Source of the DNA: Candidatus Gastranaerophilaceae bacterium
GTDB taxonomy: Bacteria > Cyanobacteriota > Vampirovibrionia > Gastranaerophilales > Gastranaerophilaceae
Direction: 5' to 3'
NCBI GenBank assembly: GCA_045635965.1
Contig: JAZTWQ010000004.1
Location: 36,204-100,203 of the forward strand
DNA: 64,000 bases
Shown here: in pieces, positions 2,202-52,714 of the stretch
How positions within the stretch are numbered: position 1 is the stretch's first letter
How the letters are laid out: each line of letters begins with the position of its first letter
The notes under the pieces: generated by a model
Told to the model about the DNA's origin: nothing
Seen by the model: the letters and a program-made list of their open reading frames with translations, nothing else
Database searches by the model: none
Translations under genes and position numbers: made by a program

Positions 2202-3698
2202 GTGCAAGAAACTCAACAACATCATTCTACACAAGAAGATAATATTAGAGCTAGTAGAATACAAAAACTTGCTGAATTAGCGGATAGAGAAGTTAACCCA
2301 TACCCTTATTCATTTGACAAAAACGCTTCTGCAGCAGAATTACAAGAAAAATATAAAAATTTAGCTGCAGGCGAAGAAACAGAAGACAAATACGCTGTAG
2401 CTGGACGTATTATGGCAATGAGAAATTCAGGTATGTTTATTGACTTACTTGATGATTCTGGAAAAATCCAAATTTTCTGCCATAAAGAACACCTTGCAGA
2501 AGATAAAGTAAAAATGTTAAAGCTTATGGATGTTGGAGATATAGCCGGTTTTTATGGAACAATTAGAAGAACTCCTCGCGGTGAGCTTTCTATTAAAGTT
2601 ACAGACTACAAACTTTTAACAAAATCTATAAAAACATTACCAGAAAAATTCCACGGTTTAACAGACGTTGAAACTCGTTACAGACAACGTTATGTTGATT
2701 TGATTATGAATGAATCAACCCGTGATACATTGAGAAAAAGAAGCTTAATCATCCAAAAAATAAGAGAATATTTAGTAAATCTCGGATTCTTGGAAGTAGA
2801 AACACCAATGCTTCAAACACAAGCTGGTGGAGCGTCTGCTCGTCCATTTATTACACACCATAATACATTAGATATGGATATGTTTTTAAGAATTGCACCA
2901 GAACTTTATTTAAAACGCCTTTTAGTTGGTGGTATAAGTGAAAAAATCTTTGAATTAAATAGAAACTTTAGAAACGAAGGTATTTCACCTCGCCACAACC
3001 CTGAATTTACTATGGTTGAGATGTACCAAGCTTACGTTGATTATAACGACATGATGAATTTAATAGAAAATCTTGTAAGCTCTGTAGCTAAAGATGTTCT
3101 TGGTACAACAAAAATTACATTCCAAGGTAAAGAAATAGATTTAACTCCACCTTGGGATAGAAAAACAATGCTTGGAGCAGTTAAAGAATATACTGGGCTT
3201 GATTTTACAGATGTATTCAGCGTTGCTCAAGCTAAGAAAATGGCTGAAGAAATCGGTATAGAAGTTGAAGATAACGCAAACTGGGGACAAATTGTTGAAA
3301 CCGTGTTTGAAGAAAGAGTTGAACCACATCTAATTCAACCAGTTCACATTATTGACTACCCTAGAGAAATCTCTCCACTTGCGAAAGTTCATAGAGATAA
3401 CCCAAGATTAACAGAACGTTTTGAATCCCGTATCAACGGATGGGAAATCTGTAACGCATTCTCTGAATTAACAGATCCAATTGACCAAAGAACCCGCTTT
3501 GAAACGCAAGCAAAAGCAAAAGCTGAAGGCGATGAAGAAGCATGCGATGTTGACGATGATTTTATTAACGCATTAGAATATGGCATGCCTCCTGCCGGTG
3601 GTTTGGGCATGGGAATTGATAGATTGGTTATGCTTTTGACCGATTCTCCTACAATTCGTGATGTAATTGCGTTCCCAACTATGAGACCTTTAAACTAA
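2202..3698 (+). CDS. lysS: lysine--tRNA ligase (class II)
   Basis: 498 aa, GTG start after GGAGG. Has an OB anticodon domain and class II motifs (FRNEGIS..HNPEFT, GGLGMGIDRLVMLL). Confidence 0.95.
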   Translation: MQETQQHHSTQEDNIRASRIQKLAELADREVNPYPYSFDKNASAAELQEKYKNLAAGEETEDKYAVAGRIMAMRNSGMFIDLLDDSGKIQIFCHKEHLAEDKVKMLKLMDVGDIAGFYGTIRRTPRGELSIKVTDYKLLTKSIKTLPEKFHGLTDVETRYRQRYVDLIMNESTRDTLRKRSLIIQKIREYLVNLGFLEVETPMLQTQAGGASARPFITHHNTLDMDMFLRIAPELYLKRLLVGGISEKIFELNRNFRNEGISPRHNPEFTMVEMYQAYVDYNDMMNLIENLVSSVAKDVLGTTKITFQGKEIDLTPPWDRKTMLGAVKEYTGLDFTDVFSVAQAKKMAEEIGIEVEDNANWGQIVETVFEERVEPHLIQPVHIIDYPREISPLAKVHRDNPRLTERFESRINGWEICNAFSELTDPIDQRTRFETQAKAKAEGDEEACDVDDDFINALEYGMPPAGGLGMGIDRLVMLLTDSPTIRDVIAFPTMRPLN

Positions 3699-10314: not shown

Positions 10315-10398
10315 TAATTATCTCCTTTTAGTTTTGTTTTGTCTTTATCAATTTTGTTTTAAGGGGGGGGCATGAAGAGCTATTCATACCCCATAAAA

Positions 10399-17821: not shown

Positions 17822-18523
17822 CTAATTTTTTCTACACGCTAGTAAAACTATATTATTAGGACGAACCTCATTTACATCTGGTTTATAAACAGAAGAATGA
17901 GCAGACGCTCTAAAAATAAGACTCATAAAGTCCCCACTACCGCCCCCACCAAGCCAACTGTTTGAAATAGTGCTATCTGAAAAAACACCTGTACGAGTCC
18001 TTGATCTGGTATTAAAAAGTCCCGCACGGCCTTCTAAATCAGGAACCGCAGACTCTTGATACGAGCCCAATGCTCGTCCGGAACCAGATTGGTTTCTGAT
18101 AAACGCATTTGCGGCGTTTGGATATTTTGAAGTTAACTCCGCCCAACCAGCAGGACAAGAACCTAAGTCAAAATACATAACCGCGCCAGAAGGGATATTT
18201 GTTTGTGTTCTTCTAAGTTCTTCTATTCTGCTATTCAACACTTGAACTTGCATATCATTCATACTATTATGTTTGATTTGACCAGCTATCATTGGCGCAG
18301 AATAACCCAAGATAAGACTACCAATCAACAATGCAATCATAGCTTCTGCTACGGAAAAAGCTCTCGTTTGGGTTAAACCAAGCCCTTGCGATACGAGGCT
18401 TTGCGGTGCTGAATTTTGTAGCATTAGACTTTGCGGTGCATCAGAACGACGCACTCTACCGTTCCCTAGCTTTTGCGATGCAAAAATTTGTATTCTTCTT
18501 TCTTTTATTGATTCTGATTTCAT
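17822..18523 (-). CDS. pilin-like protein, subfamily A (prepilin-type signal plus phage-tail-collar-like C-terminal domain)
   Basis: RA|FSVAEAMIALLIGSLILGYSAPMI (F-x-x-x-E plus hydrophobic helix). C-terminal part has GAVMYF..CPAGW, VPDLEGR, and ends NEVRPNNIVLLACRKN. Confidence 0.7.
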   Translation of the reverse strand: MKSESIKERRIQIFASQKLGNGRVRRSDAPQSLMLQNSAPQSLVSQGLGLTQTRAFSVAEAMIALLIGSLILGYSAPMIAGQIKHNSMNDMQVQVLNSRIEELRRTQTNIPSGAVMYFDLGSCPAGWAELTSKYPNAANAFIRNQSGSGRALGSYQESAVPDLEGRAGLFNTRSRTRTGVFSDSTISNSWLGGGGSGDFMSLIFRASAHSSVYKPDVNEVRPNNIVLLACRKN

Positions 18524-18588
18524 TTTTAGTCCTTTCTATTTTAATTTTAATGGTGATAATTTTTTATATTCACTTTGTTTTATTAGGT

Positions 18589-19109
18589 TTAACATTGCGC
18601 ACTAGACCTTACGACGTTAGACGTTGTAGCGATAAGCCTTTGTGTCGCTAGACCTTGTGGTGCGTATAAACGCCCCCTACCTGCCCTACCATTTGCGCAA
18701 AACGCTCTATCTTCACCATAATTAGGCGTCATGCCGAATTTTACCGATATCGTAGGCGAGAGCGTAACTCGAGCCATACGAGACAGGTATGCAGCCAGCT
18801 GGCTTTTAGCGTAAGCGTCAAAAGCTGCGTGCGTGCTATTTCGGCATCTGACCAATAAACAACGTAAGCTAGAAAGCAATTTATTGAATATTTTTCTATT
18901 AAAAAACATGCTAAAACATTCACTACATCCGTTTTCTGGATAGATGCCGAAACCAGTTCGGCATGACGGCTGATTTTTAACTTTTTTACCAGATTTTATT
19001 TTTAATTTTTTATCACGAACACTTATTTTTTGACCTACAGATGATCTCAGTGGGCTGTCAATCCCCCCCCCCCTAGTGTTATGCGGGTTTTAGCCGTTTT
19101 GTTTTTCAT
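18589..19109 (-). pseudogene. leader ORF of the pilin-like family, out of frame at a G11 tract (phase-OFF state or frameshifted)
   Basis: ATG at 19109 after AAGGA. MKNKTAKTRITL plus G11 runs into TGA. With G12 it would read through to the listed ORF 18589..18909. Confidence 0.55.
19063..19073 (-). repeat. coding-strand poly-G tract, 11 nt
   Basis: Counted directly: C11 on the plus strand. Confidence 0.95.
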
Positions 19110-24914: not shown

Positions 24915-24945
24915 GCGTCATGCCGAAATAAATTCGGCATGACGC
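24915..24945 (-). other. perfect 13-bp hairpin inside the leader ORF
   Basis: GCGTCATGCCGAA-ATAAA-TTCGGCATGACGC. Confidence 0.8.
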
Positions 24946-34020: not shown

Positions 34021-34791
<771 letters not shown>

Positions 34792-47009: not shown

Positions 47010-47565
47010 TTAATTCTTTACGCAACCTAACAAGGCAACTACTCGAGGGCGGTTTTCTTCCGACACTAAGCATTTACGCAGTACCAGTTGTATTATATTT
47101 TTTTGTTGAAGTATTGTAACTCAACACGGTGTAACTTCCCGCAAATCTTGGAAATCTACCCTGCCAACCAGCATCAATCAAACTCCAACCTTTAGGGCAA
47201 GGGTTTGTTTCTGATTCCACCACTACAGTGTTATTAAAAAATGCTACAGTTCCTTTTGGCACACCTCCACTTGAGTTTTTCAATGGTTCTATTTCTTGTT
47301 TTAATACATTATTTGATTCTACAAGTTTTTCTATTCTTCTGTTTATAATTTGCGCTTGCGCATCGCTATAATCATTGTGTTTTAATTGTTTTGTAATCAT
47401 TGGCGCAGAAAAGCCAAGCACCAAAGTCCCAATCAACAACGCAATCATCGTTTCTGCTACAGAAAAAGCCTTTATTGGTGTAGAATTTAGTCCTTGCAGT
47501 GCTAGCCCCTTCATCATTAGTCTTTGTAGCGTTAGACCTTCTGGTGCGTCAAAACGACGCACCAT
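47010..47565 (-). pseudogene. pilin-like protein, subfamily A, shortened and frameshifted near an A7 run
   Basis: KA|FSVAETMIALLIGTLVLGFSAPMI. The ORF stops at 47074. The family C-terminal signature (SEENRPRVVALLGCVKN*) is present in the +1 frame ending at 47010. Confidence 0.6.
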
Positions 47566-47699
47566 ACTGCGCCTAAACCTTTGCGGTGTTATAAATTAAT
47601 CCCTACTTCTTAATCTCATATTTAAACCTTTCCACATTAATTCAAATAACTTTTTATCAACTTAATAAAACCGACCTGCTTTTCTTTTTCGGTGGTAGA

Positions 47700-48444
47700 C
47701 TAATAATCCATTTTATTTTTAGTCAAAATATAAAACGCACAACCATAGCCAGGAGACCCCTTAGGTAAACAAGCTTTATCATAAGGATTAGTCGAATCTG
47801 GCGCACCACCTGGGACTAGCTTTCCATTCCTATATGAAAAAGAAAAAAAATCTTCTCCCCATTTATTTGGCGGAGCTGAATTATTTATATCAACAAAAAT
47901 CGTAAATACGCTATTAGTTAAAAACTCATCTCCATCAGTTGCTTTCCAAATTAAAGCCAAACCATTTTGCAAGACTATTTTATAATACCTTCTATCTGTC
48001 GCATACTTCACATCATGCAAAAGACCATCTCTTCGTTTATATTGAGAATTAACACACTTATTTGCATCATCATAAGTGCCACAATCCGTCATAATTTTAA
48101 AATACGGTTTTAAATTTTCTGCAATATCTATAGCGCCCTTTTCCGTCCATCGTTCAGTTGTCCATTCCGAAGCCTCTCCATTATCCCTTTGTGCAGACTG
48201 AACAGCTTGAGTCAATATTGAATAAGACGACTTCAACTTTGAAATTACTTGATGCCTTTGAATATTGCGGGTAAGAGTAGGAACGCTCATCGCAGAAACC
48301 ACTCCTATAATAGTCAAAGTAACCAAAACTTCCGCCAGAGTAAATGCTTTTTTATATATTTTTTGACCTGCGGAAAAATTTATCAGGCTACCAATTGCCC
48401 CCCCCCCCTACAACCATGCGGGTTTCCAGCGTTTTATTTCCCAT
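47700..48444 (-). pseudogene. pilin-like protein, subfamily B, leader out of frame at a G11 tract (phase-OFF state)
   Basis: AAGGAG-N6-ATG at 48444. MGNKTLETRMVV plus G11 gives GNW*. With G10 it gives ...GGGAIGSLINFSAGQKIYKKA|FTLAEVLVTLTIIGVVSAM, in frame with listed ORF 47700..48326. Confidence 0.7.
48398..48408 (-). repeat. coding-strand poly-G tract, 11 nt
   Basis: C11 counted on the plus strand. Confidence 0.95.
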
Positions 48445-48491
48445 GATTTTCTCCTTTTCTCACAAACTAACAAATGCTATCTGGCTAAATT

Positions 48492-51909: not shown

Positions 51910-52714
51910 TTATTTAGAACATTTCTGCTTACCATTCCAGTTTAAATCATCACAGTGCAAATACTCCATATTACCTTTGTACACAACCCATGCTGCGCAC
52001 CCCCAACCTTCTTTATTTTTTCTACACGATGTATCAAAAGTATTAACCATTCCTTCACTACCAAAAGGGACTAGTTTATTATTTACAACAACTAAAGCAA
52101 AAACATCATGCCCCCATTTATTGGGTCCCCCTTGGTCCATTTGTATCTATAAAAGCAGTAATGTATGAAGTTTTATCACCTCTAAACCAAACAGAGGAAC
52201 CATCATTTAATATAATTTTGTAATAAAAATTTCCGCCGTGGTTTTCTGCATGATATTTTCCAATATTTTCCCCGTTTAAATAATAAAAATCGGCATCAGC
52301 AATACATTTTTTTGTATTTTCAAAACCACAATCTGTCGCTATTTTAAAATTATCTTTAATCATATTGTTATATATAATTAAAGCATCTTCTTTTGTAGCT
52401 CCTGTAATCCCCCAAGTATCGACATCTCCATATTCAACAACGGTTTTTTGATAAGCTTGGGACATAGTAGTGTAAAATTTTTTAACCTTATTAATTGTCG
52501 CTTGCTCAATATGTCTTTGATGAAGTGTTGGGATAGTCATAGCTGAAACAACTCCAATGATTGTTAAAGTTACCAAAACTTCAGCAAGCGTGAACGCTTT
52601 TTTATTAAATTTAAAGAAAGAACGATTAATTTTTTGATAGTTAGGAGAATTTAAACGGCACCCAAAGCCCCCCCCCCCTAGAAAATCAACGGTTTCAGCC
52701 ATTTTGTTCTTCAT
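51910..52714 (-). pseudogene. pilin-like protein, subfamily B, leader in frame (G11) but body split by a frameshift at a G5 run
   Basis: AAGGAG-N6-ATG at 52714. MKNKMAETVDFLGGGGFGC...NKKA|FTLAEVLVTLTIIGVVSAM. The two listed ORFs (52118..52810 and 51910..52140) join as FIDTNGPRGPNKWGHDVF if G5 (52127-52131) were G4. Confidence 0.65.
52668..52678 (-). repeat. coding-strand poly-G tract, 11 nt
   Basis: C11 counted on the plus strand. Encodes GGGG. Confidence 0.95.

What the first reader, a model, noticed from the sequence alone, without database searches (positions are those of the whole stretch)
47700..48444. Subfamily-B pilin-like gene locked OFF by a G11 tract; G10 restores a full prepilin
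From the ATG at 48444 the reading is MGNKTLETRMVV, then G11, then GNW-TAG (stop at 48388-48390). Removing one G gives MGNKTLETRMVVGGGAIGSLINFSAGQKIYKKA|FTLAEVLVTLTIIGVVSAM..., exactly in frame with the listed ORF 47700..48326. The ORF track only finds a TTG that lies inside the mature hydrophobic helix. The subfamily-A gene at 47010-47565 follows 134 nt downstream with no leader module of its own, so its expression may depend on this switch.
Basis: seen in the sequence. Interest (0 to 1): 0.7.

Follow-up and report, generated by a model that had tools for sequence, protein, structure and literature searches.

The report
Poly-G on/off switch in pilin gene
A pilin-like surface-protein gene of an uncultured gut bacterium (Gastranaerophilales) is put out of frame by a run of 11 G's in its leader, and related genes show this run is a hypermutable on/off switch shared by a large gene family in this lineage.

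Summary
On the minus strand a strong Shine-Dalgarno sequence and the ATG at 48444 open a 12-codon head. A G11 run follows (48408-48398), then a stop at 48390-48388. With G10 the reading continues for 247 codons into an intact pilin-like protein.

The tract is not chance. G10 or longer is expected 0 times in shuffles. All four such runs in the window start exactly 36 nt after the ATG of the same conserved leader. A fifth pilin-like gene carries (GA)30 in its leader.

The organism is a Candidatus Gastranaerophilales bacterium. In 80 loci from other species of this group, 38 of 44 G/C runs of 9 or more lie within 230 nt upstream of a prepilin motif. In three groups of near-identical orthologues from different samples, tract length differs and produces in-frame and out-of-frame alleles.

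The best reading is a slipped-strand contingency gene that is OFF in this assembly. Switching at this particular tract could not be shown, because no reads and no second copy of the gene are available.

Dependence of the downstream gene on the switch is untested, and that gene itself looks truncated.

This is a new member of a known kind of switch, and the library searches found no paper describing it in this lineage.

The parts
48451..48456 (-). Shine-Dalgarno AAGGAG, 6 nt before the ATG
   Evidence: Read from the sequence. All five leader modules in the window have a purine-rich site at this position.
48409..48444 (-). Start codon (48444-48442) and the 12-codon conserved 'head' of the leader, MGNKTLETRMVV
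   Evidence: The pattern AAAAYGSYKRAAACC-N10-TAG9 matches four times in the window against 0.00 expected. It is aligned.
48398..48408 (-). G11 homopolymer (C11 on the + strand), the proposed slipped-strand switch. G10 or G13 gives ON; G11 gives OFF.
   Evidence: The tract starts exactly 36 nt after the A of the ATG, as in the other three modules.
48388..48390 (-). Premature stop TAG reached in the G11 frame (codon 19)
48345..48397 (-). Rest of the leader in the pilin frame (AIGSLINFSAGQKIYKKA), ending with Ala at position -1
   Evidence: This stretch is open in the pilin frame and contains no ATG, GTG or TTG. It is 68% identical to the leader of the in-frame paralogue at 57725.
47700..48344 (-). 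Mature pilin-like protein starting at Phe+1 (FTLAEVLVTLTIIGVV...), with its stop at 47702-47700
   Evidence: Pfam N_methyl scores 25.4 bits (cut-off 21.2) and TIGR02532 scores 24 bits (cut-off 16.3). The AF2 model has pLDDT 83, a helix at 36-88 and an alpha/beta head. All invariant columns of the family alignment are kept.
47566..47699 (-). 134-nt spacer to the next gene
   Evidence: No terminator-like and no sigma-70-like site on this strand. The RNA fold z-score is 0.2.
47010..47565 (-). Downstream 'subfamily-A' pilin-like gene. The ORF 47074-47565 (163 aa) is truncated, and the conserved C-terminus ENRPRVVALLGCVKN* lies in another frame, ending at 47010.
   Evidence: Three-frame translation. 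The ORF is 40% identical to the first 145 aa of the intact 233-aa paralogue at 17822-18523, which ends EVRPNNIVLLACRKN.
57680..57725 (-). Paralogous leader module, ATG 57725, G10, in frame (ON), heading the ORF 56904-57725
52668..52714 (-). Paralogous leader module, ATG 52714, G11, in frame (ON). The gene is then broken by a second frameshift at a G5 run (52131-52127).
19063..19109 (-). Paralogous leader module, ATG 19109, G11, out of frame (needs G12 or G9). It heads an ORF without a pilin motif, and an intact subfamily-A gene follows it.
34709..34791 (-). Leader of a fifth pilin-like gene, ATG 34791, with (GA)30 in the leader instead of poly-G; in frame (ON)

Best explanation
The gene is a contingency (phase-variable) gene of a Gastranaerophilales bacterium. 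It encodes a type IV pilin-like protein made with an unusually long, 33-residue leader. Codons 13 onward of that leader are a poly-G run. Slipped-strand mispairing during replication is inferred to change the run by one G at high frequency. G10 (or G13) reads through to the full prepilin. G11, the state in this assembly, stops translation at codon 19, and no usable start lies downstream, so no functional pilin is made. The same leader cassette heads other pilin-like genes in this genome and across the order. It has a 12-codon head, then a simple repeat of G, C or GA, then a variable tail ending KKA|FTLAEV. Each gene can therefore switch independently, giving cells different sets of surface filament subunits. 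Shown here: the anatomy, the frame logic, the family-wide association, and tract-length polymorphism with ON and OFF alleles in orthologues of relatives. Inferred: switching at this tract within a population, cleavage of the long leader by prepilin peptidase, and the selective reason (immune, phage or adhesion variation).
For: (1) The frame logic was verified. (2) The tract is far beyond chance, and all four G10-11 runs in the window sit at the same position of the same conserved leader. (3) The leader is coding. Many homologues are in frame from an equivalent ATG, with 0-4 Gly at the tract position, for example P0007 MAVGGGPIGS, P0009 VVVGGGAVS and P0139 VVGGGGFS. No alternative start exists in g2. 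(4) There is direct DNA evidence of tract instability in relatives at 90% or higher identity. In one syntenic group the alleles are L087 GGTGGGG (ON), L084 one base shorter (OFF), L085 G11 (ON) and L086 G13 (ON). In a second group L089 has G10 (ON) and L088 has GGGGGCGGG (OFF). In a third group L092 has G7 (ON) and L091 has G9 (OFF). (5) The feature is order-wide. In 80 loci from other species, 38 of 44 G/C runs of 9 or more lie within 230 nt upstream of a prepilin motif. In 42 of 44 SSR-bearing leaders the stretch from tract to motif is open in the pilin frame. (6) The mature part of g2 is intact and keeps every invariant family residue. It also gives a confident pilin-like model. (7) Housekeeping genes in the window are full length, so there is no general indel problem.
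Against: No reads and no second copy of this gene are available. Its cluster has one member on one contig, and the metagenome scan found nothing close. G11 could therefore be a consensus error or a fixed state. Two other family members in the window carry extra defects: a frameshift at a G5 run in the gene at 52714 and the truncated downstream gene. Either some decay or some G-run miscalling is present. Among loci from other species only 3 of 37 are in frame, far below one third, which plain random switching does not predict. The leader is longer than usual for pilins and has Ala, not Gly, at -1. The head domain matches no solved pilin structure.
Confidence: 0.72

Rival explanations
1. Assembly or consensus error: the true tract is G10 and the gene is simply intact.
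For: Runs of 10-11 G are hard to call from short reads. Another family member has a one-base frameshift at a G5 run. Most out-of-frame loci in other assemblies are exactly one base from in frame.
Against: Housekeeping genes across the window are full length against Pfam models. Two other tracts of the same length class in the same window are in frame. Orthologous tracts elsewhere differ by 2-6 nt and by interruptions, more than a +/-1 miscall. Even if the call is wrong, the tract remains a mutable switch.
Confidence: 0.12
2. The gene is decoded despite the frameshift. RNA polymerase slippage or ribosomal frameshifting on the G run restores the frame in a fraction of products, so the out-of-frame DNA state is a low-expression setting rather than OFF.
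For: Only 3 of 37 loci from other species are in frame. Of the 34 out-of-frame loci, 24 need one extra base, and the modal length is 10. This looks like a preferred out-of-frame state. Long homopolymers are known slippery sites (general knowledge, not tested here).
Against: The required shift is not uniform: some loci need +1, some need -1 and some are in frame. In-frame DNA alleles are common in the protein collection. DNA-level length changes are directly seen. No stimulatory RNA structure was found (z = +1.25). This rival could coexist with DNA switching.
Confidence: 0.1
3. Fixed pseudogene: a dead family member whose tract happens to be out of frame.
For: Neighbouring family members show extra lesions. 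No population data exist for this gene.
Against: After the single correction the frame is open for 229 codons in a 34% G+C genome. All invariant residues, including the four conserved Cys, are kept. The Shine-Dalgarno sequence and ATG are intact. The model is confident.
Confidence: 0.06

Closest known systems
Neisseria pilC (poly-G run in the signal-peptide coding region of a pilus-associated protein)
   Same: A G homopolymer a few codons after the start, inside the leader-coding part of a pilus-related gene. Length changes shift the frame and turn the protein on or off. (My own knowledge; not tested here.)
   Different: PilC is a large tip or assembly protein with a Sec signal peptide and has one or two copies. 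Here the protein is itself pilin-like, with a class III signal motif preceded by a 33-aa extension, and the tract-bearing leader heads many paralogues.
Neisseria opa gene family (CTCTT repeats in the leader-peptide coding region)
   Same: A multigene family of surface proteins, each copy carrying its own repeat in the leader-coding region, so that copies switch independently. The window shows five copies in mixed states.
   Different: Opa uses a pentanucleotide repeat in outer-membrane beta-barrel proteins of a proteobacterium. Here the repeats are mono- or dinucleotide, the proteins are pilin-like, and the organism is a non-photosynthetic relative of cyanobacteria.
Campylobacter jejuni poly-G contingency genes
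   Same: A low-G+C genome in which G/C runs of about 8-13 are otherwise absent and sit inside coding regions of surface-structure genes. The tract lengths have a narrow distribution (here 9-12, mode 10).
   Different: In Campylobacter the tracts are mostly in glycosylation, capsule or LOS enzymes at varied positions. Here they sit at a fixed position in a shared, conserved leader cassette of structural proteins.
Promoter-located tracts (Bordetella fim poly-C, Haemophilus hif TA repeats)
   Same: Homopolymer or dinucleotide repeats control fimbrial subunit genes.
   Different: Those act on promoter spacing. Here the tract is 36 nt inside the reading frame, after a Shine-Dalgarno sequence and ATG, so the effect is translational.
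Type IV pilins / type II secretion pseudopilins
   Same: The N-terminal motif A|FTLAEV with Glu5, a hydrophobic stretch, a predicted 53-residue alpha-1 helix and a globular head with conserved Cys pairs.
   Different: The leader has 33 residues or more and Ala at -1. The head domain (weak DUF6613 match) has no detectable solved-structure relative. The genes lie singly among housekeeping genes.

Membership tests
SSR-mediated translational phase-variable (contingency) gene | A simple sequence repeat long enough to be hypermutable lies inside the 5' coding region | tested here: met
   G11 at 48408-48398, starting at codon 13 after the Shine-Dalgarno sequence and ATG. The pattern is expected 0 times by chance.
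SSR-mediated translational phase-variable (contingency) gene | Repeat-length change alone toggles between a full-length and a truncated product | tested here: met
   G11 stops at codon 19. G10 gives a 247-aa intact protein. No alternative start exists.
SSR-mediated translational phase-variable (contingency) gene | Tract length is polymorphic between closely related strains or populations, with both ON and OFF alleles | tested here: inconclusive
   Met for three orthologue groups of family members in other samples. Not testable for this gene, because only one contig carries it.
SSR-mediated translational phase-variable (contingency) gene | High-frequency, reversible switching within a clonal population | not testable with these tools
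   Needs reads or a culture; none are available.
Type IV pilin-like protein (class III signal peptide) | N-terminal cleavage/methylation motif [GA]-F-T-L-x-E followed by a hydrophobic helix | tested here: met
   PF07963 scores 25.4 bits (cut-off 21.2) and TIGR02532 scores 24.0 bits (cut-off 16.3). The AF2 helix spans 36-88.
Type IV pilin-like protein (class III signal peptide) | Short basic leader (about 5-30 aa) with Gly at -1 | tested here: not met
   The leader is 33 aa and has Ala at -1. Relatives with canonical short leaders exist, for example P0002, P0012 and P0014.
Type IV pilin-like protein (class III signal peptide) | Head domain with the pilin alpha/beta fold | tested here: inconclusive
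   The AF2 head is alpha/beta with conserved Cys pairs, but Foldseek against the PDB gives no match below E = 0.6.
Type IV pilin-like protein (class III signal peptide) | Processing by prepilin peptidase and assembly by PilB/PilC machinery | not testable with these tools
   No such genes were identified among the window ORFs scanned. A published Gastranaerophilales genome is reported to carry pilA, pilB, pilC, pilT and pilD (PMC5877343).
Pfam DUF6613 (PF20318) | Score at or above the gathering threshold | tested here: not met
   g2 scores 17.3 bits against a cut-off of 24.3. The paralogue at 34021-34791 scores 53.3 bits, and most homologues carry the precomputed hit.

The most novel reading that the evidence does not exclude
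This is not one broken gene but an order-wide, modular contingency system. A conserved leader cassette sits in front of many pilin-like genes throughout Gastranaerophilales. It consists of a short head, a G, C or GA repeat at a fixed position, and a variable tail. The cassette can be exchanged between genes: the same mature protein occurs with different leaders (P0010 and P0128). It leaves most copies out of frame in population consensus sequences. Each cell would then express only a few of many alternative filament subunits, an antigenic or phage-receptor variation system in uncultured gut relatives of cyanobacteria. MAG annotation currently hides it by calling truncated genes.
Probability: 0.55. 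Interest if true: 0.72.

Novelty: new member of a known kind. Interest (0 to 1): 0.58.

Why it matters
Phase variation through simple repeats is best known from pathogens such as Neisseria, Campylobacter, Haemophilus and Mycoplasma. Finding the same logic on a large family of pilin-like genes in Gastranaerophilales has three consequences.

- **Selection in the gut:** these widespread, uncultured gut commensals would be under strong, fluctuating selection on their surface filaments, from immunity, phage or attachment.
- **A concrete genetic handle:** it would give this lineage a feature that can be tested directly.
- **MAG annotation:** gene callers currently report N-terminally truncated 'proteins' (P0001, P0005, P0123, P0130, P0133, P0137) for genes that are one repeat unit away from intact.

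Tried and rejected
- **RNA element in the leader.** Rfam finds nothing in the window, and the leader folds no better than shuffles (z = +1.25).
- **Promoter-spacer tract.** Rejected, because the run lies 36 nt inside an ORF that has a Shine-Dalgarno sequence and ATG.
- **General homopolymer-error assembly.** NadC, NadB, L14, L24 and GcpE are full length.
- **The same gene in other samples.** A protein-guided scan of metagenome contigs returned one distant locus only. An exact look-up of P0001 found no record.
- **(GA)n length polymorphism.** The two contigs carrying P0005 both have a 60-nt tract and both are out of frame, so they give no length difference.
- **Structural match of the head domain to solved pilins.** None was found.
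- **Terminator or promoter in the 134-nt gap.** None was found, so co-transcription is neither shown nor excluded.
- **Literature.** No paper in the searched library links Melainabacteria, Gastranaerophilales or Vampirovibrionia to repeat-mediated phase variation of pilins.

Full report
**What is in the sequence.**

On the minus strand an AAGGAG (48456-48451) is followed after 6 nt by ATG (48444-48442). Eleven further codons follow (GNKTLETRMVV), then a run of eleven G (48408-48398). In that frame the reading is GGGG-N-W and then TAG at 48390-48388. Removing one G gives a 247-codon frame, MGNKTLETRMVVGGGAIGSLINFSAGQKIYKKA|FTLAEVLVTLTIIGVV..., which ends at the TAG at 47702-47700.

Between the tract and the FTLAEV motif there is no ATG, GTG or TTG in the pilin frame. 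The only mechanical start is a TTG inside the hydrophobic helix. The database product of this genome starts even later, at MSVPTL (P0001).

**More than chance.**

The window has 33.9% G+C. G and C runs stop at 6, apart from one run of 8 and four runs of 10-11, and all four are poly-G on the minus strand. A G10 pattern is expected 0.00 times in shuffles.

The four runs are 19063-19073, 48398-48408, 52668-52678 and 57680-57689. Each begins exactly 36 nt after the A of an ATG that has a purine-rich ribosome-binding site. All lie in the same conserved module, AAAAYGSYKRAAACC-N10-TA-Gn, then ATTGG.AG...TAAAT...GGTCAAAAAAT.

The frame states differ between copies:

| Leader (ATG) | Repeat | State |
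|---|---|---|
| 57725 | G10 | in frame |
| 52714 | G11 | in frame |
| 48444 | G11 | needs G10 or G13 |
| 19109 | G11 | needs G12 or G9 |
| 34791 (fifth pilin-like gene) | (GA)30 at 34709-34768 | in frame |

These states come; the fifth gene is also documented.

**What the protein is.**

The restored product passes the curated thresholds of the prepilin N-terminal methylation motif. PF07963 scores 25.4 bits against 21.2, and TIGR02532 scores 24.0 bits against 16.3. It has a weak, sub-threshold match to DUF6613.

An AlphaFold model built on 21 homologues has mean pLDDT 83 and pTM 0.74. Residues 1-31 are disordered, a 53-residue helix spans 36-88, and an alpha/beta head follows. Foldseek finds no solved structure resembling the head (best E = 0.63).

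So this is a pilin-like protein by its N-terminal motif and overall architecture. It is not a demonstrated member of any characterised pilin subfamily. Its 33-residue leader with Ala at -1 is atypical.

**Organism and family.**

Relatives in the species-representative genome collection are almost all labelled Candidatus Gastranaerophilales, Melainabacteria or 'Cyanobacteria bacterium' MAGs from guts. A published single-cell genome of this order is reported to carry pilA, pilB, pilC, pilT and pilD (PMC5877343).

The pilin-like genes in the window lie singly among housekeeping genes. Neighbours include murA-like, panB/panC-like, radical-SAM, a PadR regulator and TPR proteins.

**The leader is translated.**

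Many homologues from other genomes and metagenomes are in frame from an equivalent ATG through an equivalent leader. Examples are:

- P0007: MKNKMSKTCMAVGGGPIGSLLNS...KKAFTLAEV
- P0009: ...VVVGGGAVS...
- P0008: ...VVRGGAFS...
- P0018: ...AVGGAF...
- P0027: one Gly at the tract position
- P0004 and P0006: no Gly run

These are listed.

Of the 150 family proteins fetched, 65 have a short canonical leader and 64 have a long one, 34 of them with a Gly run. The remaining 21 lack the N-terminus because the gene was called from an internal start or is a fragment.

The leader of g2 is about 68% identical to that of the paralogue at 57725, while the two whole proteins are 28% identical. The leader is thus better conserved than the mature protein. 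In one cluster the same mature protein (90% identity or higher) carries two unrelated leaders (P0010 and P0128). That suggests leaders are exchanged between genes.

**Direct evidence that such tracts change length.**

Members of clusters at 90% identity or higher, taken from different samples, were fetched as DNA.

| Group | Locus | Tract | State |
|---|---|---|---|
| 1 (syntenic: pilin, pantothenate kinase, small ORF, NAD kinase) | L087 | GGTGGGG | in frame |
| 1 | L084 | one base shorter | out of frame |
| 1 | L085 | G11, with a neighbouring T run one base shorter | in frame |
| 1 | L086 | G13 | in frame |
| 2 | L089 | G10 | in frame |
| 2 | L088 | GGGGGCGGG | out of frame |
| 3 | L092 | G7 | in frame |
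| 3 | L091 | G9 | out of frame |

Group 1 comes, group 2, and group 3. A further N-terminally truncated product (P0130) sits behind a G9 that is one base short of in frame. These differences go beyond +/-1 and include interruptions, so they are not easily dismissed as consensus noise.

**Breadth.**

In 80 loci (473 kb, 35% G+C) from other species there are 44 G or C runs of 9 or more. Of these, 38 lie within 230 nt upstream of a prepilin motif, and four more lie slightly further upstream of the pilin match.

The associated tracts have lengths 9-12, with a mode of 10. Both poly-G (Gly-coding) and poly-C (Pro-coding) leader classes occur.

In 42 of 44 SSR-bearing leaders the stretch from the tract to the motif is open in the pilin frame. 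Nearly all have an ATG with a ribosome-binding site 18-36 nt before the tract.

**Best explanation.**

The gene is a slipped-strand contingency gene that is OFF in the consensus of this assembly. It is one member of a family of independently switchable pilin-like genes that share a repeat-bearing leader cassette.

- Shown: the anatomy, the frame logic, that the leader is coding, the family-wide association, and length polymorphism in relatives.
- Inferred: switching at this tract within the population, cleavage of the long leader, and the selective purpose.

**Unresolved points and rivals.**

- **No population data.** Only one contig carries this gene. The metagenome scan found nothing close and the exact look-up failed. 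G11 may therefore be a miscall of G10 or a fixed state.
- **Other defects in the family.** The gene at 52714 is in frame at its G11 but has a +1 frameshift at a G5 run (52131-52127); G4 would restore ...NGPRGPNKWG.... The downstream subfamily-A gene is also truncated. Housekeeping genes are intact, so this is not a general assembly problem. It does show decay, or G-run miscalls, within the family.
- **Excess of OFF states.** Among loci from other species only 3 of 37 are in frame. Of the 34 out-of-frame loci, 24 need one extra base. Possible reasons are a deletion bias that makes the shorter OFF length more stable, selection against expression, systematic under-calling, or decoding by transcriptional or ribosomal slippage. 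None of these was tested. In-frame alleles are common in the protein collection and the needed shift is not uniform, which argues against slippage as the sole mechanism.

**The downstream gene.**

No terminator-like or sigma-70-like site lies in 47566-47699, and the spacer is unstructured. Co-transcription is therefore possible.

A frameshift would lower downstream expression only through polarity, which is untested. In addition, the ORF 47074-47565 matches only the first 145 residues of the intact 233-residue paralogue at 17822-18523. The conserved C-terminus (ENRPRVVALLGCVKN*) sits in another frame and ends at 47010. The same arrangement, a repeat-bearing leader gene followed by a subfamily-A gene, recurs at 19109-17822.

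**Comparison with known systems and novelty.**

The mechanism is the classical one. It resembles Neisseria pilC, Neisseria opa and the Campylobacter poly-G genes; this comparison rests on my own knowledge, and PMC5084427 gives a general account of repeat-mediated phase variation.

What is new is the lineage, the gene family and the shared leader cassette with interchangeable repeat types. Five library searches found no paper describing it. I rate it a new member of a known kind, with moderate interest.

Noticed in passing
window 34709-34791 (minus strand); L001 2756-2840; L002 81-165: A pilin-like gene (34021-34791) has (GA)30 in the leader position where its paralogues have poly-G. Here it is in frame and encodes (ER)10. 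Two metagenome contigs carrying a related gene (P0005) also have a 60-nt GA tract, one with two A-to-G interruptions. Both are out of frame by one repeat unit.
   Followed up: partly
window 52127-52131 (minus strand), within the gene 51910-52714: The paralogue that is in frame at its G11 leader tract is broken further on by a +1 frameshift at a G5 run. G4 would restore ...IDTNGPRGPNKWGHDVF.... This is either decay or a short-homopolymer miscall.
   Followed up: partly
window 17822-19109 (minus strand): A leader module with G11 (out of frame) heads an ORF that has no pilin motif but ends in APQGL/QRL-type repeats like the N-termini of subfamily-A proteins. It contains a perfect palindrome TGCCGAA-N5-TTCGGCA (18945-18963), and a second copy lies at 24921-24939. 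An intact subfamily-A gene (17822-18523) follows.
   Followed up: partly
window 47010-47565 (minus strand): The subfamily-A gene downstream of the finding is truncated. Its ORF stops at 47074, and the conserved C-terminal motif (RPRVVALLGCVKN*) is in another frame. The middle of the protein, present in the 233-aa paralogue, is missing.
   Followed up: yes
window 10363-10370: The only other long G/C run in the window is G8 on the + strand (C8 on the minus strand). It lies about 55 nt upstream of an ORF beginning [10 protein letters not shown] (S19-like by inspection), between ribosomal protein genes.
   Followed up: no
L030, L078, L066, L062, L059, L079 (leader regions just upstream of position 3001): In other Gastranaerophilales subfamilies the tract lies 100-125 nt upstream of a pilin that also has a canonical short start (for example MKKGFTLAEV). 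The stretch between them encodes a conserved peptide (..CKN..ICYNGD..HHNY..) in the pilin frame. This suggests two alternative starts, a switchable long leader and a fixed short leader.
   Followed up: no
L016, L025, L026, L031, L045, L056, L060, L065, L069: A second leader class uses poly-C (mostly C10, encoding Pro-Pro-Pro, for example ..KGCPPPEK..) instead of poly-G, at the same kind of position upstream of pilin-like genes.
   Followed up: partly
proteins P0010 and P0128 (same cluster at 90% identity): The mature protein is nearly the same, but the leaders are unrelated (MENKMAESRIVVRGGAFS... and MKTKNTKIKNILKQETIAHH...). This suggests that leader cassettes recombine between genes.
   Followed up: no
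GTDB-representative loci L003-L082: Only 3 of 37 tract-bearing leaders are in frame in these assemblies. Of the 34 out-of-frame ones, 24 need exactly one extra base, and the modal tract length is 10. This excess of OFF states is unexplained.
   Followed up: partly
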